IMG/VR virus record: IMGVR_UViG_3300046474_000237
Coordinates: 71,469-117,159 of that record
Origin: a virus
Lineage: Duplodnaviria; Heunggongvirae; Uroviricota; Caudoviricetes
Direction: 5' to 3' (one strand)
DNA length: 45,691 nucleotides
Positions 16,625-42,652 of this stretch are shown one piece after another. The notes beneath the pieces are model-generated. The model saw nothing but the letters and a program-made list of their open reading frames with translations, was not told the DNA's origin and made no database searches. The translations under genes and the position numbers were made by a program. Every line of letters starts with the position of its first letter. Within the stretch, counting starts at the first letter, position 1.

Positions 16625-19021
16625 TTAAACAGTTTGGTTATTCGTTGTTACGTTGTTCAGTATAAAGATGTTAGTTCTATCTGCTGGATCAAGGTAATCA
16701 GTAATAGATCCTGTAGTCGGTGGAATCAAGTCTCTTGTGAAATGAGTATATGTAATTCCAATCGGCGTTTTAATATTTGTAATACCTGCTACTGAGAGCT
16801 GAGCCATTAGATCTGAAACAATCAATGTACTACCTGGATCCATAGAACTTAAGAAACTCTTTGTAGTCTCAGTGATTACCGTTGCATCTGGAGCAGCGCC
16901 ATTATATCCCGTCACTGCTAAATCAAGCAAATAGAAGTTAAAGCCACGAGCAAGCAAATCACCACAAAGAACTCGGTTAGTTGAGTTCTCAAGATATGAT
17001 TGTACGCTATCAACGTTATCAAAGAAGCTAATCTGGAAGCTCGCTGTTTTATTAGCGTAGAGTGGACCGAAGCTTACGATAAGATCCTGACGTGAACTAA
17101 ATCCATAATCAAACCAAGGAATTACTGAGTCACAAACTGCATTAACGGCAGTGCCAGCAATAAAACTAGGAACTGCGAATTGGAACTGATCTTTATTCAA
17201 AGCGTTAGTAACAAGCCATGTTCCGTTAAATCCGGCAACTGAAGAGTTACGAATAGTCACGTAACGGTTTGAAGTAATGCCGTGGTTAGGAACTGTCACT
17301 GTTACAGTCGTGCCTGTGCATGACATAGTAACAATGGCCTGACTCTGAGTATTCTTGTTCTTAAATGTAAATGGAACAGCGTAGTTAATAACAATGTTAT
17401 TAGTAACCGTAGCATTGACCCAAAGACCAGGCATTACGATGTCAAACGCATTTGCGCTTAGTACGTTTACAGAGAAGCTTCCTGAGATTGAGGGGTTGGC
17501 AATAAGCATTGATGAGCCAGAGCCAGGAGCTGCAATATTAAACGCTACGATGTAGTTGAAAGTATTAGCGTCAACTACGTTAATCGGGAACGTACCATTG
17601 TACTGAGAAGGACTTACGCCTTGAATAGTTACAGACGTACCGCTGGTTAGGCCGTGGTTTGTAGCTACGACCGTCACCGTAATTGCAGAGCAAGAAATGG
17701 AGACAATGGGGATAGTCTCAACAAGTCCTGATACTGTGACCGTTTGACCAGTAGATAGGCCATGTCCAGTAGAAGCTACGTGTACAAGCCCCAGGTTAGC
17801 TGCAACGGTTGTGCTTGAAGCTGCTATTGTAGCTAAGAATGGAATTGTATCGTCTGAGCTTCCACCGCTAACTGAGCTACGTGAAAAGTCATAGATTGCG
17901 CCAGTGAGATCAGCATCACCGAAGTCATCTGTCGTAACCTGTACGATTGACGTAGCAATTGTGTTGCCACAGTATACGTCCACCATACCACCGTTATGAA
18001 TAAGCAGCGGAGCATTCACAGCTTGAACTGTAGGCAGAACAGTGCAGATCGTAGCTGCAGTTGCCATCTGGTATGTAAATGTAGATGTGTCAACAACTGT
18101 AATAGTGTAGCTGCCGTTATAGGTCGTAGGTGCAGCACCTACAATAACAACAGTTTGACCTGAGTTATAACCGTGATTAGACAATACAGCAGTAGCAGTC
18201 GTACCTGAGCTGGTAAGCTGCGTAATGAGCTGAGCTAGCTGGCCAGTAAACACTGCCTGGATTTGGTCACGGATCATTTCCGGATCACCCATACCGATTG
18301 AGGTGATTTTGTCCAAGAAGTTAAAGTTGCTCTGAAGGTTAGAACTGATCGAAGGGTCGTTAATCAGATTACGGGTAGAAATAGCATTCTTAGCCCGTGT
18401 GATAAATTCTTCATTTGTCTCTGACGATACAGAAGTATCCTTCAGGTAGTTAATTTCTGCGTGAAGGAAGTAGGGATCAAAGTTTGAAAAGTAAAGCAGC
18501 GAACCGGAGCCGATGTTGTATTGTGTACCCTCTGCTTCAGCTACAAGGTCGATATCTACGTAATATTCGTTCTGGAATGCGTCGTATGTCAGCAAGCCTG
18601 AACTGAATGTAACAGCAGCCTGCGGGAAGAACTTTGAAATGTTGTCCGTTGAGAAAAAGATATCAGTTGTCAATGATATGTTCTTCTGCTTAGCAAAGTA
18701 TAGACGTGCATTTATAACAGCACGAGTACCAAGATTACGGTCAATGAACCAGTTTGAAAGAATGTTATCAACGATACTAGTAGGAGTCGTATCGTCTACT
18801 CCAGTTATCGTATTCTGAGCGAAATACGAATCGATAGCAAGTCTAACTAGTGCAAGCAGCATAGCGGATGGGCGCAAAACTAAGTCTCTTAGGCCGGTTC
18901 CTTCGCGGGTATCTAGGTCTGGGAACTGCGCTTCAAGGATTTGTTTAGCCAATAACTCAGCCTCCAAGATGTCCTGAGCTGTTGGAGTCAATCCGGGCAA
19001 AACACTGTAAAAAGAAGCCAT
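16625..19021 (-). CDS. baseplate wedge subunit (J/gp6-like) with an inserted array of beta-barrel repeats
   Basis: AEAEGTQYNIG, ETNEEFITRA and GMGDPEM J-like motifs, plus four HG(Y/L/I)..G..V.I.G...(Y/F)NG.. repeats. Confidence 0.8.
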   Translation of the reverse strand: MASFYSVLPGLTPTAQDILEAELLAKQILEAQFPDLDTREGTGLRDLVLRPSAMLLALVRLAIDSYFAQNTITGVDDTTPTSIVDNILSNWFIDRNLGTRAVINARLYFAKQKNISLTTDIFFSTDNISKFFPQAAVTFSSGLLTYDAFQNEYYVDIDLVAEAEGTQYNIGSGSLLYFSNFDPYFLHAEINYLKDTSVSSETNEEFITRAKNAISTRNLINDPSISSNLQSNFNFLDKITSIGMGDPEMIRDQIQAVFTGQLAQLITQLTSSGTTATAVLSNHGYNSGQTVVIVGAAPTTYNGSYTITVVDTSTFTYQMATAATICTVLPTVQAVNAPLLIHNGGMVDVYCGNTIATSIVQVTTDDFGDADLTGAIYDFSRSSVSGGSSDDTIPFLATIAASSTTVAANLGLVHVASTGHGLSTGQTVTVSGLVETIPIVSISCSAITVTVVATNHGLTSGTSVTIQGVSPSQYNGTFPINVVDANTFNYIVAFNIAAPGSGSSMLIANPSISGSFSVNVLSANAFDIVMPGLWVNATVTNNIVINYAVPFTFKNKNTQSQAIVTMSCTGTTVTVTVPNHGITSNRYVTIRNSSVAGFNGTWLVTNALNKDQFQFAVPSFIAGTAVNAVCDSVIPWFDYGFSSRQDLIVSFGPLYANKTASFQISFFDNVDSVQSYLENSTNRVLCGDLLARGFNFYLLDLAVTGYNGAAPDATVITETTKSFLSSMDPGSTLIVSDLMAQLSVAGITNIKTPIGITYTHFTRDLIPPTTGSITDYLDPADRTNIFILNNVTTNNQTV

Positions 19022-31677: not shown

Positions 31678-33288
31678 TTAAAAATCAAATACGTTGTTCT
31701 CTTTAATCTCGTCCACCGTTGTGAACTCACCCTTAAGAACCATATACGCTATATTAGCGAAAACTACACTGTGGAACCAATCATCACACAAGTCTTCATC
31801 TTTTTTATACAGACGACGCCCAGTCACGGATTCTTCTTCGAAAATGTTCAATGCGTCCTGCCAGAATTCAGACATCAGGTTCCAACAAGGAGTCTCGATA
31901 CGATCACGGCCAATCTTAGCCTTCAATACAATCGTGTCCATGTTCGTTGTTCGATCTGCTGAAAAGAACTGTCCTTCTCTGTCCCAACGAAGCGTAGACT
32001 TTGCTGCTACATATTGTACAGAATTTACTTTATCCTGGCCAATACTTTTTCTAAGCAATTCTACTTGTAACTGGCCAACACCACGGTCTGAAGCAAGCAT
32101 TGTACATTTGTATTTTGCGTATAGTTCTTCAACACGCTTAACCTGATCAAGAATATCAATACCATTCAGGCGCTGGGCGTAAATAAGATATCCCTTACCA
32201 TTCCAGTCGTAACCCATGATTGTAATAACGGTGTATGAATTAGAACCACCACTTACTGACCAGTCTACTCCAAGCACAGTATGGAGAATATTACGTTCAT
32301 CCATTGGGAAACCCTTATCCCACTCTGTCTTGTTATTGTTACAACATGCCATTACTTCTTTAAGTGATAGTGGACGACCAGCTAGACCGCTAGGGCATCC
32401 AAACACTTCGTTAGCAAGCTTAGGCACTGAATAAGTCTTGGCCTTATGAAGTAGATCCTTCCACTTCTTAGGTCTCGTACGTGCAGGGAAAATAAGCTGA
32501 GGTAAATGAAACCCGTAATGGTCTTTCTCAGCAGGTTTTGCTGCCACCCATTTACCAGTGGACATATCGAGCAGACCTCCGCAGTACACACAGCCTGGAC
32601 CTTCTTTATTGGCATGCAGAATCGTATGGCAAATATCGAAATCAAGGGGTAGCGTGTACTTATTGCAATGCGTACATCTAACCGCCCACTCCATCATGTT
32701 CGATTGCTTGAACTTCTGTGTGAGTGAATTAGTCTCTGTTTTAGCCGTGCCTGTGTATCGTCTGAATGCAAAGTCTGAAGCACCCAACGTTTCTGCAAGA
32801 ATAGGGGCACATTCAAGACTGGTATCTTGGAACTCATCTAGGTACAGAGCGTCAGCGAAGACTCCACGAATACGGTCGGCGTCTTGTTCTGTTTCTGCGT
32901 AACCCAATGTTACAGCACTGCCATTAGTAAATGACTTTGAGAATACGTTCTTACGTGAGCCCGCATCAACGAAGTGCTTACGGATAAGAGGGGAACTTAA
33001 GAAGGGATCTAAATATGCTGTTGAGAATCGTGATGTCTGTTGAGACAATGGGCTACTGAACAGAGTCGAAAAGTGAGGGCGAACTAGACTGTTGGCTACA
33101 ATAGCTGCGCCAAGAGATACTGATTTGCCAATCTGCCGACCTGCCATCAAAGTCATTTCATTAGGAGAAACGTCATAGATGATTTCAAACGGCTTGTAAT
33201 CTTCGAGATTGAGAGGCTTACCTTTAAGAGTGAGCAGAGCTTTGGAAATCTCGGAGGGCTTTAGTTTTAAAAGGCTTTCTTTGTCCAT
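31678..33288 (-). CDS. terL: terminase large subunit (lambda GpA-like)
   Basis: Walker A AGRQIGKS, Walker B LYLDEFQD, CTHC/CVYC Zn motif, nuclease LGVDWS and C-terminal DDWFHS. Confidence 0.9.
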   Translation of the reverse strand: MDKESLLKLKPSEISKALLTLKGKPLNLEDYKPFEIIYDVSPNEMTLMAGRQIGKSVSLGAAIVANSLVRPHFSTLFSSPLSQQTSRFSTAYLDPFLSSPLIRKHFVDAGSRKNVFSKSFTNGSAVTLGYAETEQDADRIRGVFADALYLDEFQDTSLECAPILAETLGASDFAFRRYTGTAKTETNSLTQKFKQSNMMEWAVRCTHCNKYTLPLDFDICHTILHANKEGPGCVYCGGLLDMSTGKWVAAKPAEKDHYGFHLPQLIFPARTRPKKWKDLLHKAKTYSVPKLANEVFGCPSGLAGRPLSLKEVMACCNNNKTEWDKGFPMDERNILHTVLGVDWSVSGGSNSYTVITIMGYDWNGKGYLIYAQRLNGIDILDQVKRVEELYAKYKCTMLASDRGVGQLQVELLRKSIGQDKVNSVQYVAAKSTLRWDREGQFFSADRTTNMDTIVLKAKIGRDRIETPCWNLMSEFWQDALNIFEEESVTGRRLYKKDEDLCDDWFHSVVFANIAYMVLKGEFTTVDEIKENNVFDF

Positions 33289-33431: not shown

Positions 33432-33923
33432 ATGAAACTAACATGTGGCGCAGTAATTGAACGTATACCTAGCATTTCTCTGGATGACGAACAGAGGGTG
33501 CACTGGCTACGATGGATTGAAGCTTTGGAGTCTGGCAGTTTCAAGCAGATCAAGTTTGCTCTCAGGGATACCGGTGGCTTTTGTTGTTTAGGAGTTGCGT
33601 GTGATCTAATTAATCCTAAGGGTTGGGTTAAGGAAGAAGAGCCACTTGTATATAGCTTCCATCTAACAACCTCAGATAAGGGCTTGCAAACCTCTAAAGA
33701 CCATCTCGTGCCAACAGCTAGGCGATGGTATGGATTAGAAATGGGACCTCTGGGATTTCATGTAGGAGGTAGATTTCCGGATGGCGACGGAAACACCCTT
33801 GAAATTTCCTCGCTTGCACTTGCGGGTATTAATGACATGGGTGCTACATTCACTGAAATAGCTGAGATCCTGCGAAAAGCGATGAACGGCGGTTACGTCT
33901 GTTCGGTTGCTTTGGTCAGGTAG
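33432..33923 (+). CDS. conserved phage hypothetical protein
   Basis: W..ALESG.F.Q....L.....FCCLGVACD and INDMG.TF.EIA motif seen in a widespread uncharacterised phage family. Confidence 0.7.
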   Translation: MKLTCGAVIERIPSISLDDEQRVHWLRWIEALESGSFKQIKFALRDTGGFCCLGVACDLINPKGWVKEEEPLVYSFHLTTSDKGLQTSKDHLVPTARRWYGLEMGPLGFHVGGRFPDGDGNTLEISSLALAGINDMGATFTEIAEILRKAMNGGYVCSVALVR

Positions 33924-33938: not shown

Positions 33939-33985
33939 AGCCCAGGGTAGGTTGCAGCCTCTTCCTTCTCCTGGGCTATTTTTTC
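33939..33985 (+). terminator. intrinsic terminator with a long loop
   Basis: AGCCCAGG...CCTGGGCT followed by ATTTTTT. Confidence 0.65.
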
Positions 33986-34072
33986 AATTTTTTAGCTTTT
34001 TGAGGTATAACAGTATTGTAAAGGCTGTGCATAGCTTTTATTAATATCAAATATTTCAATAAATATAGAATG

Positions 34073-34083
34073 TTTGGTATAAC
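34073..34083 (+). promoter_or_regulatory. promoter motif TTTGGTATAAC (weaker second copy GAGGTATAAC at 34002-34011)
   Basis: Matches the recurring motif and lies 74 nt upstream of the Ubl gene. Confidence 0.6.
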
Positions 34084-34156: not shown

Positions 34157-34579
34157 ATGGCTGCAACCGTAACCAAGACTATCGTTACCATCGCTTCGAC
34201 CGACACCGAGTACCAAATTCCGGGCGATTACACGCCTGCTTCGATCCAACGCAACTACGCTAACGATATTCCTAATATCGGCAGCATGCAGTTCGAAGAA
34301 CGTGTCGTGACGCAAGACGGTGAAACGGTTCGTGAGATCACCTTCAAGCCCCGTACGGGCACCAAGGGTGCTGGCGTAACGAAGACCATCGTGACCATCG
34401 CTTCGACGGACACGGAGTACCAAATCCCGGGTGACTATACCCCGGCATCGATCCAACGCAATTATGCGAACGACATTCCGAACATCGGTTCGATGCAGTT
34501 CGAAGAGCGTGTTGTGACGCAAGACGGCGAGACCGTCCGTGAAATCACCTTCAAGCCGCGTACCGGCACGAAGGGTTAA
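34157..34579 (+). CDS. tandem di-ubiquitin-like precursor (PRTRC protein C-like, two units ending ...KPRTGTKG)
   Basis: 71-aa and 69-aa units, identical over 67 aa. Predicted beta-beta-alpha-beta-beta pattern. The C-terminal GTKG is the hallmark of PRTRC protein C. Clustered with E2, JAB and E1. Confidence 0.8.
   Translation: MAATVTKTIVTIASTDTEYQIPGDYTPASIQRNYANDIPNIGSMQFEERVVTQDGETVREITFKPRTGTKGAGVTKTIVTIASTDTEYQIPGDYTPASIQRNYANDIPNIGSMQFEERVVTQDGETVREITFKPRTGTKG
34169..34576 (+). repeat. tandem duplication within the Ubl gene (34169-34369 vs 34376-34576)
   Basis: Codon-by-codon comparison: 67 identical amino acids, about 30 synonymous codon differences. Confidence 0.95.
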
Positions 34580-34616
34580 GAATTACTTCAGTTGCTTTTA
34601 GCCACTGAGTAGTGAT

Positions 34617-34670
34617 ACGAGCAGCAGGGTTCACTCCTAGCCACGCTGCTCGTTTTTCCTGTTTTTTTTA
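34617..34670 (+). terminator. terminator after the Ubl gene
   Basis: ACGAGCAGC...GCTGCTCGT 9-bp stem followed by TTTTCCTGTTTTTTTT. Confidence 0.7.
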
Positions 34671-34719
34671 GTCGAGCTAGGAGCTTAAGAAAAACGGGAA
34701 TAACTCAAGGACAATAAGA

Positions 34720-35625
34720 ATGCAAACTTTTAAAGTACCTCGCTCAGAATCTGATTTGCCTCGGCAACTTCAGAAGATGAGACTAGAAGCAGAAGAGAAG
34801 CTCAGAGTATTCTGTACAAAGAAGATCCTGGATCATAAGCTCTCCACTAAAACGTTTAATTATCAGTTCGACATCTCTGGTGCAAGAGCTGGCGGTCAAC
34901 GTAAGTCTGTTCAAAAGCTTAAAGATATTCTGTACAAAGCAGTAAAGAAACAAGTTCCTTATATTGAGTATATTGCCGGTGGCGATATCATTATCAATAG
35001 TACTTCTTCAAATGCCGTTGCTTTAAAAATCGTATCTCCGTATATGACTTTTGATGTAGAACCTTGGGATTCGATAAGTACTTTGAGCGAAAGAATGCAC
35101 TGGGTAAGGTCGATGCGCAGATACACTAAGTATTTGAACTTTAAGTGTATGAGAGGTGGTATTCCTTTGAACTTAGAGCGTATTCGATTTACCCATGAAA
35201 CTCATCCTGAAGATATGAATGCGTTTCATGCATGGAATCAAACCCAGGCTAGTCCATGTAAAGTGCGGATGCGAATCACTCTTACGGCCAAGCTTTCGAT
35301 AAGAGGATATTTTTACGACGAGTATGTAAGAGTTATAACTAACAATCTTGTTGATGGCATCAATACATACGAAGACTACGAAAACTATCTTATTGAATAT
35401 AAGCATAACGAGAGATTGGCCTCATTAAGAGACGTTAGAAATTGGGAAACTTTCGATATCACGTCTCGTCGGGTACCTACGTTTTATCCTGGGGTTGAGA
35501 AATACGTGTCTGCTGAGAAAATCTTCCTGATACTGGAAGAACTTCAACAGGTTATTAAAACACTTTCCAGAAAAGTTAGCTATGATACTGCAGCGTTTAA
35601 TATCGGAAGCAGCGAAGCTTCCTGA
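34720..35625 (+). CDS. hypothetical protein within the Ubl cluster
   Basis: 301-aa ORF with SD-like AAGGA. No motif recognised. Confidence 0.7.
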   Translation: MQTFKVPRSESDLPRQLQKMRLEAEEKLRVFCTKKILDHKLSTKTFNYQFDISGARAGGQRKSVQKLKDILYKAVKKQVPYIEYIAGGDIIINSTSSNAVALKIVSPYMTFDVEPWDSISTLSERMHWVRSMRRYTKYLNFKCMRGGIPLNLERIRFTHETHPEDMNAFHAWNQTQASPCKVRMRITLTAKLSIRGYFYDEYVRVITNNLVDGINTYEDYENYLIEYKHNERLASLRDVRNWETFDITSRRVPTFYPGVEKYVSAEKIFLILEELQQVIKTLSRKVSYDTAAFNIGSSEAS

Positions 35626-35836
35626 TCTGTCACAAGAAGTAAAAAGTGTCCAGGAGAAGTTTAAAACTATCGGTGAAGAACTGGGTCACAAGGAACTCGA
35701 ACTTCTAATGATCGTAACTTGTAAGACGTTTGCATGTGAAAACAATAGCAGACGCAGAGTGGATCTTAAGAACATCGAAGCAAACATCGTAAAAGCCAAG
35801 CATGCGGCTGTTGAGGAAGAAGAGGATTTCGTATGA
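35582..35836 (+). CDS. small helical hypothetical protein
   Basis: 84 aa with an acidic EEEEDF tail. Stop overlaps the E2 start (ATGA). Confidence 0.6.
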   Translation: MILQRLISEAAKLPDLSQEVKSVQEKFKTIGEELGHKELELLMIVTCKTFACENNSRRRVDLKNIEANIVKAKHAAVEEEEDFV

Positions 35837-36588
35837 GCGATATTACTATTGAAACGGCTAGCGTTGACGTTAGTGCTGTAGCAGAGGAAAACCTCGTTGA
35901 TACCAAGGGTCAGCACATCATCCTTCTGGAAGATTGCGTGGCAGTAGTAATTGGTGATGACACCAGCAGTATTGAGAAGCGAATCACGTATGAAGATTTC
36001 GGTAACATCATCAGTGCTGTGCTGAATCGTCGTAATGAAGAATCGCTTGAAGGTTTCCAACTTCCTGCAAACTGTTTCTTCTTTGCAAAGTCTGGTACAT
36101 CGATTCAGCTCAGTTGTTATTATGCAGAACGTGTCGCTGAGATGCAGCATCTTGACAGAAAGTATACGGTCAAGACTCCGAATATCATCATCAGCCATAA
36201 GTTAGAAAAGCATAATAACAAGCAATGGAGAACGGTTGGATCACGATTCTTCTGTACGGATAAGAGATCAGGTGCTTTGTCGAAGGGTTTGATCTGGGAT
36301 CAGAATCCGACTAATCGTGTATATCTGTCTCCGTTTCCGAACACATACGCAGAAGGTCATATGTGCTATGGCGGAAACTCGATGCCTTCACATTTCCAAG
36401 ACAACAATCTGCAAGGCTTGAATTGGTATTATCAGTTCCTGTTTGAATCTCCGTTTAACAATGACTTGGGTTTGCGCTCGTTAAAAGAAGAGGTTGTTGC
36501 ACAAGATTGGTTCAAGACTCTTGAAACAGCAGCTAAGAACAACGAGCCGTTCCCGTATGAAAAACTCCGTGGTTATACGAAACCCTAA
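35833..36588 (+). CDS. prokaryotic E2-like conjugating protein (Prok-E2 family D / PRTRC protein B-like)
   Basis: TPNII...VYLSPFPNTYAEGHMCYGGN...FLFESPFNNDL, matching LY.APF.N.Y..G.ICWG...F..S.FN.DL. Candidate catalytic Cys in HMCYG. Confidence 0.8.
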   Translation: MSDITIETASVDVSAVAEENLVDTKGQHIILLEDCVAVVIGDDTSSIEKRITYEDFGNIISAVLNRRNEESLEGFQLPANCFFFAKSGTSIQLSCYYAERVAEMQHLDRKYTVKTPNIIISHKLEKHNNKQWRTVGSRFFCTDKRSGALSKGLIWDQNPTNRVYLSPFPNTYAEGHMCYGGNSMPSHFQDNNLQGLNWYYQFLFESPFNNDLGLRSLKEEVVAQDWFKTLETAAKNNEPFPYEKLRGYTKP

Positions 36589-36602
36589 GTAATTAAGGAT
36601 AT

Positions 36603-37934
36603 TTGAAAATGGAAATCATCAGCCAACACATCAGCTGCGTAGTTCTTCCCAACGAGCTTCAAACTGCAATTGAAGCTGGTTATAGCGAAATCTACGCTAT
36701 GACGAGTGAGGGTATTGTCAAGCATCACAAGCTTCGTGGTCGTAATCGTTTCGTTCGTCTTAAGGTTGACAAGCTTCCGGCTAACTACAAGGAAGAAAAG
36801 GTTTCTCAAGAAATCAACTTCCTGCCTGATGGCAAGATTCCGATTCAGTTGTTCGATCAAGTCGTGGCATTCTTCAAGCAAGTCATGGAAGTGAAGAAGT
36901 CCGAGCTTGAAGCAATGATTTGGGTTTGTTGGGATCAAGAAAGTGGTTATCATCTGATTGTCCCTGAACAACGTGTGTCAAAGGCTTCGGCTTCGTATGA
37001 CTGGGCTTCGTTGCCTGCTGGTAAGACTATCGTCTGTGATATTCATAGTCACAATACGATGGGTGCATTCTTCAGCGGTACAGACAACCGTGATGACCAA
37101 GGCAATATCGGATTCTCCGGTGTTGTTGGCCGTCTGAAGGATGAAACTCCGCAGACAGTGTGGCGCTTTAACTACAAGGATAAGAAAATCGAATGTGAAT
37201 TCGATGACATCTTTGTTCTCCCGGTTCGTGAAGAGCAAGCAATTCCTGAAGATTGGATTTCCAAGATCGTGACTACGAGCACTGGGTATTCGACGGGAGG
37301 GAACAACCAAAAGGGAAAAGCGGATCATCTCAAACCCTGGCAGTACAAAAGGGGAGAAAACACAAGCGAAGGAAATCGGGCAGGTCCACATATGCTGGCT
37401 CACGATAGGGGGTTACTTCCCGATGGTTATGGGAACTATTGGGAGGAGCGTTTCGGATCCGAGGCAGCTAACCTTTCCGGAGGTGGAGGATTTCCTTGGG
37501 AGTCCTGGGCCTTCAACCCCGACGATGTAGATGCTGATGGAATCATTGATCCTTCGAAGCTTACTCTGGACAAAGCAGAACGTGCTTTGGCAGTGCTCCG
37601 TGAAGATCCGGGGTATGAGGATTCACATCTAGACTACAGTCCCCGTGTTCACCCGTATAATCCTGACTTCGATCCTGACGTTAACACCACGTTTGACTGT
37701 GATGAGCGGTATGAAGAAGTCAAGGAAGAACACGGTAAAGACGTTGCTGACATCTTCTGTTTGATCGATGATGGGATGTCTGTTCTGAATGGCAAAGATG
37801 ATCTCGTTCGTAACCTGATGAGCGACATGATTCACATGATGTCCGAAGAAGGTCAAGAGGAATTGTTCAGAGACTTGTATCAGGAACTTCCTGACAAGGC
37901 TCAAGAACGAATCCAGATGAACGGTATTCACTAA
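36603..37934 (+). CDS. JAB/MPN metallopeptidase (PRTRC protein A-like) with a long acidic C-terminal extension
   Basis: ELEAMIW (Glu) ... DIHSHNTMGAFFSGTDNRDD (HxH-x7-S-x2-D). Confidence 0.9.
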   Translation: MKMEIISQHISCVVLPNELQTAIEAGYSEIYAMTSEGIVKHHKLRGRNRFVRLKVDKLPANYKEEKVSQEINFLPDGKIPIQLFDQVVAFFKQVMEVKKSELEAMIWVCWDQESGYHLIVPEQRVSKASASYDWASLPAGKTIVCDIHSHNTMGAFFSGTDNRDDQGNIGFSGVVGRLKDETPQTVWRFNYKDKKIECEFDDIFVLPVREEQAIPEDWISKIVTTSTGYSTGGNNQKGKADHLKPWQYKRGENTSEGNRAGPHMLAHDRGLLPDGYGNYWEERFGSEAANLSGGGGFPWESWAFNPDDVDADGIIDPSKLTLDKAERALAVLREDPGYEDSHLDYSPRVHPYNPDFDPDVNTTFDCDERYEEVKEEHGKDVADIFCLIDDGMSVLNGKDDLVRNLMSDMIHMMSEEGQEELFRDLYQELPDKAQERIQMNGIH

Positions 37935-37938
37935 GTAT

Positions 37939-37970
37939 AAGAGGCGCTCCTAATCGAGCGCTTCTTTTTT
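37939..37970 (+). terminator. intrinsic terminator after the JAB gene
   Basis: AGAGGCGCTC-ctaatc-GAGCGCTTCT followed by TTTTT. Confidence 0.8.
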
Positions 37971-37981
37971 AGAGAGTTGAA

Positions 37982-38101
37982 ATGAGCGATACAACTGAAC
38001 TCTGGTTGTTGTATGTGTGGAATAAGAACTGGCACATGCAATCTGGCAGTGTTATGGAATGCTCGTATGCTGAGTGGCTCGAAATCATGGGGTACAAATG
38101 A
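37982..38101 (+). CDS. small unannotated ORF (39 aa, MSDTTELWLLYVW...)
   Basis: Translated by hand. Preceded by GAGAG, and its stop overlaps the next ATG (ATGA at 38098). Confidence 0.45.
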   Translation: MSDTTELWLLYVWNKNWHMQSGSVMECSYAEWLEIMGYK

Positions 38102-38367
38102 AAGACCATGAAATTCGTGAATTAGTTTCCCAGTTGACGGAAGTAGCCGAGCAATACGGTCAGACACAACAATTGCGGGAACGTATCCGTGGAGTAGTGT
38201 TCCCATTTGTAGGAAAACTTCAAGACAGGGATACTCGTAGAGTGTCAATGAAGGAAGGCTTCGACGCTCAGCGTCAAGCAGGGATTAACGTTGATTGGTT
38301 TACTTGGCAAATAGCTTGGCAGGATGCGCTTATTGTTAGGGAGTCTGAAAAATTCACTTCAACATGA
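38098..38367 (+). CDS. hypothetical protein (probable start MKDHEIRELV)
   Basis: Part of the 38074-38367 ORF, coupled by ATGA overlaps at both ends. Confidence 0.6.
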   Translation: MKDHEIRELVSQLTEVAEQYGQTQQLRERIRGVVFPFVGKLQDRDTRRVSMKEGFDAQRQAGINVDWFTWQIAWQDALIVRESEKFTST

Positions 38368-38468
38368 CTGAATGGTTCCTATATTTTCTGTCGTGCAAAG
38401 GTACTAAACGCGCTTTCAGAAATTACGAACACTTTCTTGAATGGTTAGCAGAGGCTAACAATGACTGA
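38364..38468 (+). CDS. small unannotated ORF (34 aa, MTEWFLYFLS...)
   Basis: Translated by hand. ATGA overlap with the upstream stop. Confidence 0.4.
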   Translation: MTEWFLYFLSCKGTKRAFRNYEHFLEWLAEANND

Positions 38469-38486
38469 ACAAAAGGAAGTATTTAA

Positions 38487-38696
38487 ATGATTTGCGTATA
38501 CTGCAAAGAAGATAAAGAGACAAGACCATACGGTCCTAACTTTTCAGCAATCTGTTTCAGATGTATGATGGCTACGCCTGAACGAGAGGCTGAAGCTTCC
38601 AAGAATTATCTTGCTCAACTCGATGCTTGTGGCGGTGTAGCCATCATCGGAGAAGAGACTGGACCTCGTCCTTTAAATACCGATTCTTTGGTATAA
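38487..38696 (+). CDS. small Zn-ribbon protein
   Basis: CVYC-x16-CFRC in a 69-aa ORF, with AAGGA upstream. Confidence 0.6.
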   Translation: MICVYCKEDKETRPYGPNFSAICFRCMMATPEREAEASKNYLAQLDACGGVAIIGEETGPRPLNTDSLV

Positions 38697-38697
38697 G
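38687..38697 (+). promoter_or_regulatory. promoter motif TTTGGTATAAG upstream of E1
   Basis: Exact copy of the recurring motif, 76 nt before the E1 start. SD CAGGAG follows. Confidence 0.7.
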
Positions 38698-38773
38698 AAT
38701 ATTGAACGGACCAACACGTCCTTAAACAAGGTCATTGCGCCTATATGTTGTCTAACCTCAGGAGTTAATTTTT

Positions 38774-40039
38774 ATGTTTACTTTCCGTCCTTCCTCGATT
38801 CCCTCGAACATTTTCGTAGTTGGCTGTGGAGGAACTGGTTCACGACTCGTACCGGCATTGATTCAGTTCATTCGTTCAATCACGAAAGAACACGTGCCCT
38901 CTGGCTGGCTTGGAACTACGAACATCGTCCTGGTTGACGGTGACGTAGTGGAACAGAAGAATCTGATTCGTCAGAACTTCGTTCAGAGCGATGTGGGTAA
39001 GAACAAGGCCTTGGTTCTGGCAAATCGGTATGGTAAGGCGTATGGGATGAATGTTGTTCCGTACATGAAGTACATCGAAGAAGGTACGAATCCGCAGAAC
39101 TTCCGTAGTCTTCTAAATGAAGCCACTGGTCTTAATTTGACCAATAACTACAACGACATGGTAATCATGTGCGTTGATAGTGCCAAGGCTCGTCGTATTG
39201 TTATTCAGGCACTGCAGGGCGTATACGGGGAGAATACTGTATTTATCGATGCTGGTAACGAAGATAGTTTCGGTCAGGTTCGCATGTTCCACAATGCAGT
39301 TCTTGTGGACCATAGGTTCCAGAATGAAGAGGTGGCTCGTAAAAAATACAAAAATCCGGAACGCATTGAGTTTGTACCTGAGCCTTTGAATTTCATTCCG
39401 TTCGATTTTCATTTTTATCGTGATTTGGAAGATAACCCTGGACTCGGTAGTTGCGCAGATCTAGATCAGACGTTGGCTATCAATTCTTTGATGGCAATGT
39501 ACATTCTGTCTTTTGTTCAGAACCATTACTATAACAAGGTTATCGACTACAACGCAGTATCAATCGATATCGTTAAAGGCTCTACAGCCTATACGAAAAA
39601 CACTGTTGTAGAGTATCGTAATAAAATGATTCACAGCGGTACCACCATTCGAAGTATTGGAGTAGATGACGGAATGCTCCTTCATGTGCAGCAGAGCGCT
39701 GGAGATGATGATTTACTAGGTCAGTTCCTTCATCAAAATACTGAAGCTGTTAATGCTCTCCTCGCTGCTCAAACTGTCGGTGCCCCGGTAGTTGAAGAAG
39801 TTAAGGCAGCAGCTCCGAAGAAGAAAACGAAGGTGAAGGAACTACGTCCAGTGATTCAAGTTGAGCCGATGAATGTAGAGATTTCCACGATTACATTCAA
39901 CGCTGAACCGTTGGTCGGTGAAGCAAGTGGTCCTGCGTTGGTTGACTTTGAAGCTGAAGCTAACAACGACACGTTTGCACTTCCTGAATCAGTACCTCCT
40001 GCGACGGGTAGCGTCTGGGACAATGTAGATCAATTCTAA
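38774..40039 (+). CDS. ThiF/E1-like Ubl-activating enzyme (PRTRC ThiF-like)
   Basis: IFVVGCGGTGS, LVDGDVVEQKNLIRQNF, GKNKA, CVDSAKAR and DAGNE. Candidate catalytic Cys in LGSCADLDQTLAIN. No CxxC Zn pairs. Confidence 0.9.
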   Translation: MFTFRPSSIPSNIFVVGCGGTGSRLVPALIQFIRSITKEHVPSGWLGTTNIVLVDGDVVEQKNLIRQNFVQSDVGKNKALVLANRYGKAYGMNVVPYMKYIEEGTNPQNFRSLLNEATGLNLTNNYNDMVIMCVDSAKARRIVIQALQGVYGENTVFIDAGNEDSFGQVRMFHNAVLVDHRFQNEEVARKKYKNPERIEFVPEPLNFIPFDFHFYRDLEDNPGLGSCADLDQTLAINSLMAMYILSFVQNHYYNKVIDYNAVSIDIVKGSTAYTKNTVVEYRNKMIHSGTTIRSIGVDDGMLLHVQQSAGDDDLLGQFLHQNTEAVNALLAAQTVGAPVVEEVKAAAPKKKTKVKELRPVIQVEPMNVEISTITFNAEPLVGEASGPALVDFEAEANNDTFALPESVPPATGSVWDNVDQF

Positions 40040-40044: not shown

Positions 40045-40080
40045 AAAGAAAAAGCCCCTGTTTTACGAGGGGCTTTTTTT
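40045..40080. terminator. bidirectional intrinsic terminator
   Basis: AAAAAGCCCCT-gttttacg-AGGGGCTTTTTTT between convergent blocks. Confidence 0.85.
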
Positions 40081-40181
40081 AGCTTAGTTAAACAAGGGCT
40101 CACAAAAGTTCTCACGACTGTAGGTATAAAGTTTAGATTACAGTAGTTGAGCCTAATATTGCACTGCCTTGCCTAAGCTAA

Positions 40182-40784
40182 TTAATCTGGCATATTTGGC
40201 CAGAATCTATTTCCTTTAGAAATGTTCTCTGTAGCAGTTAGTATTTGTAAATTGAACTGATTATGTAGCCCGCAGACTAATTCATTCTGCAATGGAACTA
40301 TATGATCTACGTGGTGTGTAATACCAGTTTTTTCAGAAAGTTTAATAGACTCTGCATAGAATAACTTCATAGCTTCTAAATCTGCCCAAACTGGAGTAGC
40401 TTGCAATTTGGCCGCTCGTCTATTTGAATTTTTGAAGTAAACTTTATCTAGGTTCTGTTTTTGCCAATTCCTAGAATAGGCCCTACATAGATCAGGATTA
40501 GCTGCGTAAAAAGCTCTACGTCTAGCTCGTTCTGTTTCGAGATTGTTTAAATAATATTGACTATTGTACTTGATAATCTTATCAGTATTTTTATCTTTAT
40601 AAGATTTACATTGTAAACGTTCTTTTTCTCTAACTTCAGGATTTTGCCTACGTTCTTTTTTACAAGCCTCGCAATATCCGTTATTTACAAATCGTTTTGA
40701 GAAATGTCCGTTTTTGCAAGGCTTTCCAGTAAAGTACTTTATTAAGCCGTTTGTCTTAGCTTCGATTCTAGAAATTACATTCAC
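40182..40784 (-). CDS. HNH endonuclease
   Basis: N-terminal YFTGKPCKNGH...C..C, and C-terminal HHVDHIVPL....VCGLH...NLQIL...EN..K.N. Confidence 0.88.
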   Translation of the reverse strand: MNVISRIEAKTNGLIKYFTGKPCKNGHFSKRFVNNGYCEACKKERRQNPEVREKERLQCKSYKDKNTDKIIKYNSQYYLNNLETERARRRAFYAANPDLCRAYSRNWQKQNLDKVYFKNSNRRAAKLQATPVWADLEAMKLFYAESIKLSEKTGITHHVDHIVPLQNELVCGLHNQFNLQILTATENISKGNRFWPNMPD

Positions 40785-40791: not shown

Positions 40792-41199
40792 TTACGAAAT
40801 ACGTTCTCTGCTTGAAGTTGTTAGATTATCCACCACTGTGAATTGCGCAAGTGTGGTGCCATCCTGTCTAAGCATAATCAATGTACCAGCGGTCTTATCC
40901 CATGACCAAGAACCAATAGCTTCATCTTGAATATTTTTGGTAATAGTATAGAGTGACTGGGTTACTACGTTTACAACGCCTTGAAGTTGACCGAATGCGT
41001 AAAGGATATAAGTACCTGTTACTGTCGGAGTAAAAGTCATCTTGTAAAGAGGACCTGAGACTGGTGCAAACGTAACCGGAAGAACGCTAACAGCACCATT
41101 AAAAAGTAGGATCTGATCAGGCGGGGCTGTAAGGCCAGAACTTGGACCTTGAGCAATAATGCTAACTGGGTTGTTTACTTCGATTTCGATTGAATACAT
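40792..41199 (-). CDS. hypothetical virion protein (Ig-like)
   Basis: Beta-rich 135 aa, with GLYKMTFTP..TGTY-type motif. Confidence 0.55.
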   Translation of the reverse strand: MYSIEIEVNNPVSIIAQGPSSGLTAPPDQILLFNGAVSVLPVTFAPVSGPLYKMTFTPTVTGTYILYAFGQLQGVVNVVTQSLYTITKNIQDEAIGSWSWDKTAGTLIMLRQDGTTLAQFTVVDNLTTSSRERIS

Positions 41200-41762
41200 T
41201 AGTCACCGCCCATTTCTTTGATATATCGCCTAATAGCTTTCTTCTTATTTTCTGTATCTTCTGAAGTCTGACCGGCTTCTAGCATTTCTGAAGGAATAAA
41301 ATCAAACGGTGCTACAGGCTCAGAGTAACCTTCTTGGCGTAACATGTATGCAGCTGTAGTTACAAGACCTGTTGCCTCTAGTGGTACATAAATACCATTC
41401 TCTACTAGTACCTTACGTACCTCTGTAATTGCGTATGCAAGTTCTAGAGTTGTAGGAGCAGGTACGAATTCAAAGTCTGCTTCGATGTTGTTAATAACAT
41501 CTGTTGCATATAGAGTAAATGCAGCGTCTTCAAAGAAAAGTTCAGGCTGGCCTTCGATAAGCTGAAGAACACTGATCTTGTCCCGAGTAAGCCCGTCAAG
41601 TACCATTCCTAGAGTAATAGAGATAGTCTCGATTTCGAGTTCTCTCCATTCACCTTTACCGAAGATACGATCCAGAGTGGTCTTAATATGTGAAATTGAA
41701 GCCATCGCCATCCTAGGATCCGGGGCTTTCAATTCAATGCCGATATCTTCTTCTTCAAACAT
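41199..41762 (-). CDS. hypothetical protein
   Basis: Acidic 187-aa ORF coupled to its neighbours. Confidence 0.65.
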   Translation of the reverse strand: MFEEEDIGIELKAPDPRMAMASISHIKTTLDRIFGKGEWRELEIETISITLGMVLDGLTRDKISVLQLIEGQPELFFEDAAFTLYATDVINNIEADFEFVPAPTTLELAYAITEVRKVLVENGIYVPLEATGLVTTAAYMLRQEGYSEPVAPFDFIPSEMLEAGQTSEDTENKKKAIRRYIKEMGGD

Positions 41763-41764
41763 AC

Positions 41765-42652
41765 TTATACGTTGTTAGTTAAATGCAGAGCAACTTTTTG
41801 CAGATCCATCGGCAGTGTCTCAAGTACTTGCTTGAAATGTACTGGGCCGTGATCAAACTCATTGCCAATATCTGCACCCATCATTGATGAGAAATGGCCT
41901 TTGCCGAGCTTTGCAATCTTTTCAAAAGGAACGTCTTTTCCGCAAAGCCTGACATTCAGAGATGATCTGATTGCAGCTTCTTTAGTGAAAATCGTTTCAT
42001 TGTAGAAATTGTAGCCTCTTGTTGTGAGACCCGCTTGCTTATCCATTTCTGAAATTGTATCACAAATGTCGCGGACTGTCTCAGGCTTGATTTGACCAGG
42101 TAGCTTATGGATTGCTGAAGCAAGTTTTACAAAGGATGCATTCTTTGTTTCATAGAAACGATTAGCAAGAGCCTTTACAGCAGCTTCTTTATTCAGATAA
42201 CCATGACCTGAATATCGAATAACAGCGTCGCTAGGTTCAATACCCTTTTCTTTAGCTTCGTCATAAAGCTCGGAAGCTTGCTTTGAAAGTGTACCGTTTA
42301 CACGAAGACCTGAGAGTTCGCCTTCGAAGAAAGCTTGTTTAGTTAGGTAGTCGTCAGTAGCGATTGCAGCAGCAGTGGCTGTACGCTGAGCAGCAGCCTT
42401 AACCATACGGTCAGTAAGAGCTGTGACTTCTGTCTGTACGCCGTAGGCTTCAACAGCTTTTGCAACCTTATCTAGCGCAAAAACGTCTACGGCCTTGTAA
42501 GCGACTTTTTCATGGTACTTCATTTGCAGAGCTGTAGCAATGCAAGAATCCTTGTTGTCAAGGGGCATTTCTTGGTCAACAGAAGCCTGCTTAACGAATG
42601 AAGCTGCTTCTGGCACAAGATCGAGAATTTCTTTAAGTGTGTATGCTAGCAT
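41765..42652 (-). CDS. probable head/internal protein with repeated K-x-A motifs
   Basis: About ten hydrophobic-x-K-x-A motifs in 295 aa. Confidence 0.55.
   Translation of the reverse strand: MLAYTLKEILDLVPEAASFVKQASVDQEMPLDNKDSCIATALQMKYHEKVAYKAVDVFALDKVAKAVEAYGVQTEVTALTDRMVKAAAQRTATAAAIATDDYLTKQAFFEGELSGLRVNGTLSKQASELYDEAKEKGIEPSDAVIRYSGHGYLNKEAAVKALANRFYETKNASFVKLASAIHKLPGQIKPETVRDICDTISEMDKQAGLTTRGYNFYNETIFTKEAAIRSSLNVRLCGKDVPFEKIAKLGKGHFSSMMGADIGNEFDHGPVHFKQVLETLPMDLQKVALHLTNNV

What the first reader, a model, noticed from the sequence alone, without database searches (positions are those of the whole stretch)
34157..40039. Phage-encoded complete ubiquitin-like conjugation pathway (Ubl + E2 + JAB + E1)
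Seen in sequence: one plus-strand island carries a Ubl ending in GTKG (34157), an E2-like protein with an intact HMCYG Cys (35833), a JAB peptidase with a full E...HxH...S..D site (36603) and a ThiF/E1 with a GSCA Cys (38774). Established: this component set matches the PRTRC/Bub-type cassettes of bacterial mobile elements, and bacteria use related Bil systems to tag phage proteins. Inference: here the virus owns the pathway, placed right beside terL and under phage promoters. It may tag host or phage proteins, or counter host Ubl-based defence such as CBASS Cap2/Cap3 or Bil. I cannot check whether this phage version has been described.
Basis: partly seen in the sequence, partly recalled or inferred. 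Interest (0 to 1): 0.95.

Follow-up and report, generated by a model that had tools for sequence, protein, structure and literature searches.

The report
Phage-encoded polyubiquitin-like protein tagging system
A large uncultured soil phage carries an apparently intact set of genes for making, activating, transferring and trimming a small ubiquitin-like tag, which is encoded as a two-copy precursor like eukaryotic polyubiquitin; the module is inherited across a whole group of large phages, and nobody has yet tested what it tags.

Summary
Window 34157-40039 (+ strand) encodes a ubiquitin-fold protein, an E2 (Prok-E2_D), a JAMM/JAB peptidase and a ThiF-type E1. Their catalytic residues are intact and invariant across relatives.

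- The Ubl gene is a head-to-tail di-Ubl. Its two units differ at 31 synonymous codons and 1 non-synonymous codon.
- Related phages carry 1, 2, 3 or 5 units, some with C-terminal caps. All units end in TG(T/N/A)KG, so a peptidase has to mature them.
- Two further conserved genes lie between the Ubl and the E2: p301, a confident model with no fold match in any library searched, and p84. They are predicted to bind each other.
- The cassette holds a fixed place between terL and a virion-protein operon in about 20 large phage contigs, Salmonella phage Arash and Vibrio phage D69.
- It uses the promoter motif of the plus-strand, non-virion genes.

It is a divergent, phage-restricted branch of the untested PRTRC / "6d" cassette. 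It is neither Bub nor Bil. ParB and PRTRC D/E/F are absent, and all NCBIfam scores fall below cut-off. Targets and role are unknown.

This scan has noted phage PRTRC-like cassettes and poly-Ubl genes before on other DNA. I found no paper describing them functionally.

The parts
33941..33993 (+). Terminator-like hairpin and T tract ending the upstream gene (p163, DUF8296 family)
   Evidence: Read from the sequence. The stem changes in a compensatory way in L004/L005.
34002..34083 (+). Two promoter-like motifs (GGTATAAC at 34004 and TTGGTATAAC at 34074), 75-150 nt upstream of the Ubl gene
   Evidence: The motif T[TG]GGTATAA[GC] occurs 20 times in the 117-kb genome, always on the + strand. These sites are conserved in L004/L005.
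34157..34579 (+). Di-Ubl precursor gene. Unit 1 is 34157-34369 and unit 2 is 34370-34576. Each unit ends in RTGTKG and the second ends directly at the stop codon.
   Evidence: 68 of 69 residues identical, 31 synonymous codon differences, 83% nucleotide identity. Beta-grasp fold.
34617..34669 (+). Intrinsic-terminator-like hairpin (9-bp GC-rich stem) and T tract after the Ubl gene, which makes it a separate transcription unit
   Evidence: Read from the sequence. Conserved in L004/L005.
34720..35625 (+). p301, a conserved cassette protein of an unnamed family. Predicted partner of p84 and candidate specificity or E3-like factor.
   Evidence: 111 cluster representatives. No Pfam or NCBIfam hit. 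AlphaFold2 pLDDT 93.5, pTM 0.88. No fold match. Complex score 0.79 against 0.52 for the best control.
35582..35836 (+). p84, a small protein whose gene overlaps the end of p301 and the start of the E2 gene
   Evidence: Overlaps seen. Present in relatives down to 31% identity. Predicted interface with p301.
35833..36588 (+). E2-like protein (Prok-E2_D) with catalytic Cys178 and Asn170 eight residues upstream of it
36603..37934 (+). JAB/JAMM peptidase with an N-terminal domain, a complete E..HxH..S..D site and a ~220-residue C-terminal extension. The ATG at 36609 is the start used in relatives.
   Evidence: (PRTRC_A, 1.2e-21).
37941..37975 (+). Terminator-like hairpin and T tract after the JAB gene
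   Evidence: Read from the sequence.
37983..38696 (+). Variable small ORFs, including p97 (38074/38099-38367) and the CxxC..CxxC protein p69 (38487-38696)
   Evidence: (p69 matches phrog_18256, 1.2e-22). p69 is kept in close relatives only, and p97 is largely absent from L004-L007.
38688..38697 (+). Promoter-like motif TTGGTATAAG, 77 nt upstream of the E1 gene
38774..40039 (+). E1-like adenylating enzyme (ThiF family) with GxGxxG, NLxRQ, Asp135 and Cys227, plus a ~150-residue C-terminal extension
   Evidence: (PRTRC_ThiF, 6.7e-26).
40051..40081 (.). GC-rich hairpin flanked by A and T runs: a terminator between the cassette and the converging minus-strand genes
   Evidence: Read from the sequence.
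31678..33288 (-). Large terminase subunit, the conserved upstream neighbour on the other strand
   Evidence: GpA_ATPase 3.1e-10. Synteny.
40792..42652 (-). m135-m187-m295 operon, the conserved downstream neighbour on the other strand. Its Arash homologues carry the GenBank labels 'structural protein' or 'hypothetical protein'.
   Evidence: synteny in 13 loci; GenBank labels; mass-spectrometry table.

Best explanation
This is a working, phage-encoded ubiquitin-like conjugation system. It belongs to a phage-restricted branch of the PRTRC / Iyer-2006 'type 6d' cassettes.

Proposed mechanism:
1. The Ubl is transcribed as its own unit, with two promoter motifs and a terminator, and is translated as a head-to-tail di-Ubl.
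2. The JAB metallopeptidase cuts after ...TGTKG and releases two identical 69-71-residue beta-grasp tags with a free C-terminal Gly.
3. The ThiF-type E1 adenylates that Gly and takes it onto Cys227.
4. The tag passes to Cys178 of the E2.
5. The E2, helped by the p301-p84 pair encoded just upstream of it (a candidate specificity or E3-like module), attaches the tag to lysines of target proteins.
6. The JAB can also remove it.

The multi-copy precursor and the separate Ubl transcription unit suggest that the tag is consumed stoichiometrically on abundant targets. My preferred target class is the phage's own virion or assembly proteins made in the same cell. Host proteins come second.

What is shown: gene content, folds, catalytic residues, selection on both units, synteny and phage restriction. 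What is inferred: every enzymatic step, the role of p301-p84 and the targets.
For: - Families and residues: Prok-E2_D, Prok-JAB and ThiF score above Pfam cut-offs, and the best NCBIfam hits are PRTRC A, B, C and ThiF. E2 Cys178, E1 Cys227 and Asp135, and the full JAMM site are invariant from this phage to a bacterial plasmid PRTRC and a Bacillus phage.
- Ubl fold: pLDDT 90.7, with matches dominated by the ubiquitin fold.
- Selection: the two units differ at 31 synonymous and 1 non-synonymous codon. The same pattern appears in an independently duplicated di-Ubl (23 synonymous, 2 non-synonymous) and in the penta-Ubl of Bacillus phage WH1 (32-35 synonymous, 0-2 non-synonymous).
- Need for processing: relatives carry 3 units plus a 5-residue cap, 5 units plus a 15-residue cap, or a single unit plus a 3- or 17-residue cap. 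All units end in TG(T/N/A)KG.
- Conserved module: Ubl-p301-(p84)-E2-JAB-E1 recurs in about 20 viral contigs.
- p301-p84: complex score 0.79, best control 0.52. That mark was reached by 58 of 80 solved complexes and 2 of 110 mismatched pairs. The runs share at least 34% of their contacts, and the partner's pLDDT is at least 78.
- Core status: the cassette lies between terL and m135-m187-m295 in all large-phage loci, including Arash and Vibrio D69.
- Phage restriction: the phage-type E2 matched 23 viral contigs but only one 3-kb contig among 185,579 species genomes.
- Protein-level detection: Arash cassette proteins were seen by mass spectrometry of a virion preparation (PMC10585845; GenBank labels).
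Against: - No biochemical or genetic test exists for this family or for bacterial PRTRC. Every reaction step is inferred from homology.
- The E2 lacks the downstream conserved His that Iyer et al. described for type 6d E2s.
- The Arash mass spectrometry identified 116 of 272 proteins, including nucleotide-metabolism enzymes. It therefore does not prove virion incorporation. The paper's Gp numbers also do not map cleanly onto the GenBank labels, and GenBank gp251c is in the wrong frame for the Ubl.
- The cassette uses the promoter motif of the + strand non-virion genes, not that of the flanking virion genes. This weakens the argument that a virion target follows from the neighbourhood.
- The 100% Ubl identity with the nearest relatives may reflect a recent recombinational sweep. 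dS is 0.26 against 0.75-2.4 for neighbouring genes, and the flanking non-coding DNA is also about 95% identical. Across the wider family the Ubl diverges about as fast as the enzymes.
- In the complex model the confident contacts are between p301 and p84 only. A link to the E2 is not shown.
Confidence: 0.6

Rival explanations
1. Host-directed takeover or counter-defence. The phage tags host proteins, for example defence, transcription or proteolysis factors, to inactivate or redirect them. Alternatively its JAB and E1 interfere with host Ubl-based immunity (Bil, CBASS Cap2/Cap3).
For: Bacterial relatives of this chemistry act in phage-host conflict (PMC11601603, 10.1101/2023.09.04.556158). Arash E1 and E2 carry the label 'structural protein', which would also fit enzymes delivered with the virion.
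Against: Accessory anti-defence genes usually vary between related phages. This cassette keeps one position from 94% down to 46% terL identity and is present in every large-phage locus examined. A deconjugase alone would be enough to counter Bil or CBASS, yet the whole pathway and a multi-copy tag are kept. No host is known, so no host system can be matched.
Confidence: 0.25
2. Inter-phage competition cargo. This would be a Bil-like defence carried by the phage, tagging structural proteins of co-infecting phages.
For: It has the same four-component architecture as BilABCD, which tags a phage central tail fibre (10.1101/2023.09.04.556158). The Ubl model also matches the Ubl of a bacterial E1-E2-Ubl complex, 8tyz_B, weakly (probability 0.75, TM 0.46).
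Against: It has a core, syntenic position rather than a variable island. PADLOC gave only weak E1 matches to CBASS E1-E2 models. The best family matches are PRTRC, not Bil. The phage-type E2 is almost absent from bacterial genomes.
Confidence: 0.07
3. A sulfur-carrier pathway of the ThiS/MoaD-ThiF type. E1 would activate the beta-grasp protein for thiocarboxylate formation, used to thiolate tRNA, DNA or a cofactor, with no protein conjugation.
For: The E1 also matches ThiF and MoeB models weakly, and MoaD is among the fold matches of the Ubl. By earlier notes on this genome the phage is rich in tRNA genes.
Against: An E2 with an invariant Cys is always present. No rhodanese or desulfurase domain is found in the cassette. 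Multi-copy precursors point to stoichiometric use rather than a recycled carrier. The E1 profile matches eukaryotic UBA1, UBA6, UBA7 and UBA3 adenylation domains.
Confidence: 0.04
4. A plasmid-type maintenance or partition accessory, as classical PRTRC has been labelled ('ParB/ThiF partitioning cassette').
For: The closest named family is PRTRC, which is typical of conjugative plasmids, ICEs and temperate prophages (PMC13366799).
Against: No PRTRC ParB was found in the 117-kb record. No PRTRC D, E or F was found. The genomic context is a large phage's packaging and virion region.
Confidence: 0.02

Closest known systems
PRTRC system (ParB-Related, ThiF-Related Cassette; NCBIfam TIGR03734-03742), which is operon type 6d of Iyer, Burroughs & Aravind 2006 (PMC1779556). 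Example: Polaromonas sp. JS666 plasmid 1, genes F-B-A-ThiF.
   Same: It has a small Ubl ending in Gly, a stand-alone E2-like protein with a catalytic Cys, a JAB with an N-terminal extra domain, a ThiF-type E1 without rhodanese, and the gene order Ubl - X - E2 - JAB - E1. The best NCBIfam hits of all four proteins are PRTRC C, B, A and ThiF.
   Different: All scores are below NCBIfam cut-offs. ParB and PRTRC D, E and F are missing. p301 shows no relation to PRTRC_F (hhalign probability 0.4). The E2 lacks the downstream His. The JAB and E1 carry long C-terminal extensions. The Ubl is encoded as a multi-copy precursor. The cassette is carried as a core module of large phages rather than on plasmids or ICEs. 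PRTRC itself has never been tested experimentally, as far as I could find.
Bil (bacterial ISG15-like) systems, BilA-D, types I and II (10.1101/2023.09.04.556158; PMC10557695; PMC11601603)
   Same: It has separate Ubl, E2, JAB and E1 genes and a presumed thioester cascade, and it concerns phage biology. Some Bil Ubls have 2-3 beta-grasp domains.
   Different: Bil is a bacterial defence that tags the tail fibre of the invading phage, whereas here the phage owns the system. In Bil the multiple beta-grasp domains form one mature protein. Here each unit ends in the same cleavable TGTKG motif and the units are identical, as expected of a precursor. No sequence-level membership was detected.
Eukaryotic polyubiquitin genes (yeast UBI4, human UBB/UBC); comparison from my own knowledge
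   Same: Units are joined head to tail without spacers and are identical as protein but diverged at synonymous sites. Some relatives have a C-terminal cap that must be removed. A dedicated peptidase is needed to release the monomers.
   Different: The only similarity is the fold, so the arrangement arose independently, and at least four times within phages. The C-terminus is TGTKG rather than LRGG. The processing enzyme is presumably a JAMM peptidase encoded in the same cassette.
Bub (bacterial ubiquitination-like; '6E'/DUF6527) operons (PMC11601596)
   Same: Both are prokaryotic cassettes with E1, E2, Ubl and a peptidase, and Ubl domain numbers vary.
   Different: Bub uses oxyester (Ser) intermediates, an E1 without a catalytic Cys, Ubl-E2 or E2-E1 fusions and a DUF6527 serine protease. 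None of these applies here.
Lambda/T1 tail assembly proteins TAPI (Ubl) and TAPK (JAB + NlpC/P60) (PMC1779556)
   Same: A phage-encoded beta-grasp protein with a conserved C-terminal Gly, paired with a JAB peptidase inside a morphogenesis region.
   Different: TAPI/TAPK has no E1 or E2, so it involves processing only and no conjugation.

Membership tests
PRTRC (NCBIfam TIGR03734-03742) | ThiF-family protein scoring above the TIGR03736 cut-off (144.75 bits) | tested here: not met
   Best hit of the E1, but 91.1 bits, E 6.7e-26
PRTRC (NCBIfam TIGR03734-03742) | PRTRC_A (JAB) scoring above the cut-off of 101.8 bits | tested here: not met
   77.1 bits, E 1.2e-21
PRTRC (NCBIfam TIGR03734-03742) | PRTRC_B (E2) scoring above the cut-off of 131.45 bits | tested here: not met
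   29.3 bits, E 5.1e-7, C-terminal third only. The catalytic Cys aligns with bacterial PRTRC_B.
PRTRC (NCBIfam TIGR03734-03742) | PRTRC_C (Ubl) scoring above the cut-off of 45.95 bits | tested here: not met
   15.1 bits, E 0.019, aligned to the end of the profile
PRTRC (NCBIfam TIGR03734-03742) | Associated ParB-related protein (TIGR03734) | tested here: not met
   No match in the 117-kb record. The record is estimated 88% complete, so a copy in the missing part cannot be excluded.
PRTRC (NCBIfam TIGR03734-03742) | PRTRC proteins D, E and F | tested here: not met
   No NCBIfam hit for p301, p84, p97 or p69, nor for 28 members of the p301 family. hhalign of the p301 family against Polaromonas PRTRC_F gave probability 0.4.
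Iyer 2006 operon type 6d | Small beta-grasp protein with a conserved C-terminal Gly | tested here: met
Iyer 2006 operon type 6d | Stand-alone E2-like protein with a conserved Cys | tested here: met
   Cys178 is invariant
Iyer 2006 operon type 6d | Absolutely conserved His downstream of the Cys in the E2 | tested here: not met
   There is no invariant His in the 37 phage-type E2s. Where the bacterial PRTRC_B has SHFTHPN, the phage proteins have SPFN-NDL.
Iyer 2006 operon type 6d | JAB with an N-terminal alpha+beta domain carrying a conserved Arg and Trp | tested here: inconclusive
   An N-terminal ~100-residue region is present. The invariant W110 and R188 lie in or next to the JAB core, and only 7 sequences were aligned.
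Iyer 2006 operon type 6d | E1-like protein without rhodanese, with the JAB encoded next to it | tested here: met
Bil (BilABCD) | Sequence or profile membership of BilA-D | tested here: inconclusive
   PADLOC 2.0.0 and NCBIfam gave only weak E1 matches to CBASS E1-E2 / cap2 models. I did not establish whether those libraries hold Bil models.
Bil (BilABCD) | Encoded by the bacterium as an anti-phage defence | tested here: not met
   It is a core syntenic gene block of phage genomes and is nearly absent from 185,579 species genomes.
Bub (6E / DUF6527) | E1 lacking a catalytic Cys, Ser-based E2, and a DUF6527 serine protease | tested here: not met
   E1 Cys227 and E2 Cys178 are invariant. No DUF6527 hit.
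Type II CBASS Cap2/Cap3 | E2-E1 fusion protein with an adjacent CD-NTase | tested here: not met
   E2 and E1 are separate genes, and no CD-NTase lies in the cassette.
Polyubiquitin-type precursor (by analogy, not homology) | Head-to-tail identical modifier units, each ending in the conjugation C-terminus | tested here: met
   Capped and 3- or 5-unit versions occur in relatives.
Polyubiquitin-type precursor (by analogy, not homology) | Cleavage of the precursor into monomers by a dedicated peptidase | not testable with these tools
   Inferred from the invariable presence of the JAB gene. It needs an in vitro cleavage assay.

The most novel reading that the evidence does not exclude
A whole lineage of large phages runs its own polyubiquitin-like system as part of normal particle production. 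The tag, made in bulk from multi-copy precursors, would be attached covalently to virion or assembly proteins by an E1-E2 cascade guided by a new-fold adaptor (p301-p84). The enzymes may travel with the particle. That would be a viral protein-conjugation pathway convergent with eukaryotic ubiquitin, and a new kind of virion maturation chemistry.
Probability: 0.3. Interest if true: 0.92.

Novelty: new variant of a known kind. Interest (0 to 1): 0.78.

Why it matters
Ubiquitin-like conjugation in bacteria has so far been shown only as a defence against phages (Bil, CBASS). The PRTRC type, predicted in 2006, has never been tested.

In this case the virus keeps the whole pathway as an inherited core module. 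It has repeatedly evolved polyubiquitin-style precursors, which argues that the tag is used in bulk. It also brings two cassette-specific proteins, one of them a confidently predicted fold with no match in any library searched.

Cultured relatives carry the same module: Salmonella phage Arash, Vibrio phages D69, D148 and D181, and Bacillus phages WH1 and Edson. The open questions of what PRTRC-type systems do and why a virus would need its own ubiquitin-like tag can therefore be tested directly with ordinary phage genetics and mass spectrometry.

Tried and rejected
- DNA search of the island against 50,697 phage records found no near match.
- PHROGs has no family for the E1, E2, JAB, p301 or p84.
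- p301: no Pfam or NCBIfam family in 28 members. No convincing fold match in Foldseek PDB, AFDB clusters, VIA-align wide (best Z 5.1, a generic alpha/beta sandwich), ESM Atlas or BFVD. The atlas feature search gave only chance-level RelA_SpoT leads. This does not prove that the fold is new.
- hhalign of the p301 family against bacterial PRTRC_F showed no relation. Against Arash gp250c it gave only a motif-level match (E 0.003, 29 columns).
- PDB sequence searches with the E2 and JAB (single sequences and profiles) found nothing meaningful.
- Atlas look-ups of the JAB C-terminal extension and of p84 gave no usable hit.
- Expression: no RNA holder was listed for the island or for the Ubl-p301 stretch. 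DNA holders were rhizosphere metagenomes.
- The Arash paper's Gp numbers could not be mapped with certainty onto the GenBank genes, so I do not use its 'Gp251' row as detection of the Ubl.
The 2021 jumbo-phage survey (PMC7824862) and a 2026 review (PMC13282480) do not mention one. Subscription journals are not covered.

Full report
**What is there.** The window is the right-hand 45.7 kb of a 117-kb IMG/VR virus record that is estimated 88% complete. Between the large terminase gene (31678-33288, minus strand) and a block of minus-strand genes lies a plus-strand island. It holds:
- a 140-aa ORF (34157-34579);
- a 301-aa ORF (p301, 34720-35625);
- an 84-aa ORF (p84, 35582-35836), which overlaps both of its neighbours;
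- a 251-aa ORF (35833-36588);
- a 443-aa ORF (36603-37934);
- a few small variable ORFs, including a CxxC..CxxC protein (p69, 38487-38696);
- a 421-aa ORF (38774-40039).

Pfam places the 251-, 443- and 421-aa proteins in Prok-E2_D, Prok-JAB and ThiF, all above the gathering scores. NCBIfam names PRTRC_B, PRTRC_A and PRTRC_ThiF as their best families and PRTRC_C as a weak hit of the 140-aa protein, all below the curated cut-offs.

**Catalytic residues.** I aligned phage relatives with a bacterial plasmid PRTRC (Polaromonas JS666) and a Bacillus jumbo phage.
- E2: Cys178 (HMCYG), Asn170, Gly180 and Phe208 are invariant. Asn170 lies eight residues before the Cys. From my own knowledge, that is the spacing of the HPN Asn and the catalytic Cys in classical E2s.
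- JAB: Glu103, His148, His150, Ser158 and Asp161 form a complete JAMM site and are invariant.
- E1: the GxGxxG loop and the NLxRQ motif are conserved in all sequences that cover them, and Asp135 and Cys227 (GSCA) are invariant.
- A profile of these E1s finds the adenylation domains of eukaryotic UBA1, UBA6, UBA7 and UBA3, and of MccB, in the PDB.

**The Ubl.** One 69-residue unit, folded with 13 homologues, gives pLDDT 90.7 and a beta-beta-alpha-beta-beta order with a loose C-terminal tail. An exhaustive structural comparison returns almost only ubiquitin-fold proteins (TINCR, Fubi, ubiquitin, FAT10, ISG15, SUMO, MoaD). Z is 4-4.9, which is modest, as expected for so small a domain. Foldseek agrees weakly.

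The ORF holds two such units joined head to tail (...RTGTKG|AGV...), and the second ends at the stop codon. The units are identical at 68 of 69 aligned residues. They differ at 32 codons, 31 of them synonymously, including an AGC/TCG serine pair. Both copies have therefore been held under strong purifying selection since an old duplication.

**Poly-Ubl precursors recur.**
- A more distant relative (L007) and most metagenomic homologues have a single unit.
- Another clade (L021/L022) has a di-Ubl whose units are 94% identical to each other but 43% identical to those of the window. That is an independent duplication, with 23 synonymous and 2 non-synonymous differences.
- Vibrio phage D69 encodes three units with linkers and a 5-residue cap.
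- Bacillus phage vB_BceM_WH1 gp211, annotated 'virion structural protein', is five units plus a 15-residue cap. Units 2-5 differ by 32-35 synonymous and 0-2 non-synonymous codons.
- Two metagenomic phages have one unit plus a 3- or 17-residue cap.

Every unit ends in TG(T/N/A)KG. Caps and internal junctions cannot be activated by an E1, so a peptidase must cut after that motif. The JAB is the only peptidase that is always present.

**Two more cassette proteins.** p301 belongs to an unnamed family with 111 cluster representatives and no Pfam or NCBIfam model. Even distant members lie in the same place, in the order Ubl - p301 - small protein - E2 - JAB - E1.
- Its AlphaFold2 model is confident (pLDDT 93.5, pTM 0.88).
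- Five structure libraries gave no convincing relative.
- It is not detectably related to bacterial PRTRC_F, which holds the same position upstream of the E2.
- Invariant or nearly invariant residues are K77, P80, R134, Y135, W242, R284 and Y288.

A three-chain complex prediction (p301 as partner, with p84 and the E2) scored 0.79 against 0.52 for the best control. That mark was reached by 58 of 80 solved complexes and 2 of 110 mismatched pairs. The runs shared at least 34% of contacts, and the partner's pLDDT was at least 78. My own alignments were used, so these counts hold only roughly. The confident contacts join p301 helices 13-31 and 250-270 to p84 residues 17-53. Replacing the E2 lowered the score to 0.52, so an E2 contact is possible but not shown. 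With the overlapping reading frames, this makes a p301-p84 pair that works with the E2 the most economical reading. I propose a specificity or E3-like role, which is an inference.

**Transcription layout** (read from the sequence).
- The Ubl gene has two copies of the phage motif (GGTATAAC at 34004, TTGGTATAAC at 34074) and its own hairpin and T-tract terminator (34617-34669).
- p301-p84-E2-JAB follow without a motif of their own and end at a second terminator (37941-37975).
- E1 has its own TTGGTATAAG (38688) and a strong terminator (40051-40081).
- The motif T[TG]GGTATAA[GC] occurs 20 times in the genome, always on the plus strand. It never occurs on the strand of the virion genes that flank the island.
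I checked only its strand distribution.

The island is thus regulated with the non-virion genes although it sits among morphogenesis genes.

**Distribution and inheritance.** The phage-type E2 was found in 23 viral contigs, mostly 40-190 kb, but in only one 3-kb contig among one genome each of 185,579 prokaryotic species. In every large-phage locus the cassette lies between terL and the m135-m187-m295 operon. This holds down to 46% terL identity, and for the downstream operon also in Salmonella phage Arash and Vibrio phage D69. So it is a vertically inherited core module of a broad phage group and not a shuffled accessory island.

In GenBank the Arash E1 and E2 carry the label 'structural protein', from mass spectrometry of a virion preparation (PMC10585845). 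That preparation yielded 116 of 272 proteins, including metabolic enzymes, and the paper's numbering does not map cleanly onto GenBank. I take it only as evidence that cassette proteins are made.

**Limits of the conservation argument.** Against the nearest relatives the di-Ubl is 140/140 identical with 20-22 synonymous differences. However, its dS (0.26) is far below that of neighbouring genes (0.75-2.4), and its non-coding flanks are also about 95% identical. A recent recombinational sweep of the whole Ubl unit explains this as well as extreme constraint does. Across the wider family the Ubl diverges about as fast as the enzymes. The between-unit comparison is not affected by this caveat.

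**Classification.** The component set, gene order and best profile matches place the island nearest to PRTRC, which is operon type 6d of Iyer et al. 2006. It fails every curated PRTRC cut-off, lacks ParB and PRTRC D, E and F, and lacks the downstream E2 His. I therefore treat it as a separate, phage-restricted branch that most likely works like PRTRC is predicted to work.
- It is not Bub, which has oxyester chemistry, a Cys-less E1 and a DUF6527 protease (PMC11601596).
- It is not CBASS Cap2/Cap3, which has an E2-E1 fusion.
- It shares the four-gene architecture of Bil but not its owner or context.

Classical PRTRC has been noted in temperate Burkholderia prophages as a 'partitioning cassette' without functional study (PMC13366799), and NCBI labels a Ralstonia phage gene 'PRTRC system protein A'. 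I found no paper on the large-phage version or on phage poly-Ubl genes. A 2021 comparative survey and a 2026 review of jumbo phages do not mention them. Earlier notes of this scan report phage PRTRC-like cassettes in many other genomes, and poly-Ubl genes in Bacillus-type jumbo phages. My independent finding of the WH1 penta-Ubl agrees with them.

**Verdict.** The island is an intact, selected, phage-owned ubiquitin-like conjugation system with a polyubiquitin-style precursor and two lineage-specific partner proteins. I put the chance that the chemistry works roughly as described at about 0.8. The target class is open: phage virion or assembly proteins about 0.35, host proteins or counter-defence about 0.25-0.3. 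It is a new variant of a known but untested kind, it can be tested in cultured relatives, and it is of high interest.

Noticed in passing
L002:102-320 (Salmonella phage Arash OQ632216, gp251c): The annotated gp251c is in the wrong frame. The true Ubl is the overlapping 66-aa ORF at L002:107-307, which ends in RTGTKG. Proteomic searches run against the deposited annotation would miss the Ubl.
   Followed up: partly
L001:6959-7945 (Vibrio phage D69): The annotated E1 starts at an internal Met and lacks the GxGxxG loop. The frame stays open upstream to just after the JAB stop, with no ATG, GTG or TTG start. It lies one base out of frame with the JAB gene. That suggests an unusual start codon or a frameshift-made JAB-E1 fusion.
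   Followed up: partly
L008:4895-7415 and L025:6831-9273: In two relatives the JAB gene is split into two ORFs by an insertion of about 1.1 kb. In L008 the insertion carries a LAGLIDADG-type homing endonuclease on the other strand.
   Followed up: no
window 40182-40784 (-): An HNH / endonuclease VII-like gene lies between E1 and m135. It is present in some relatives (L007, L015) and absent in L004, as expected of a mobile homing endonuclease.
   Followed up: no
window 16625-19021 (-): A 798-aa presumed tail or spike protein has sub-threshold hits to the E1 FCCH beta-barrel (E 1.8e-5, 25.2 bits against a cut-off of 29.5) and to the endosialidase beta-barrel. This is probably only a similarity between beta-barrels.
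   Followed up: no
window 33432-33923 (+): The gene just upstream of the Ubl unit (p163, phrog_18067) sits behind another TTGGTATAAG motif (33311).
   Followed up: no
whole genome G000:C1: All 20 copies of T[TG]GGTATAA[GC] lie on the + strand and none on the - strand, a complete split of this motif by strand.
   Followed up: partly
L032-L034 (37-38 kb viral contigs): Compact E2-JAB-E1 sets of more classical PRTRC size occur in small phage contigs. My profile, built from the large-phage Ubls, found no Ubl there.
   Followed up: no
L010:2563-4092 (Bacillus phage WH1 gp213): In the Bacillus phages the position of p301 is held by a 509-aa protein with a long charged coiled-coil-like C-terminal half, and a 127-aa acidic protein precedes it. 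I did not test for homology to p301 or p84.
   Followed up: no
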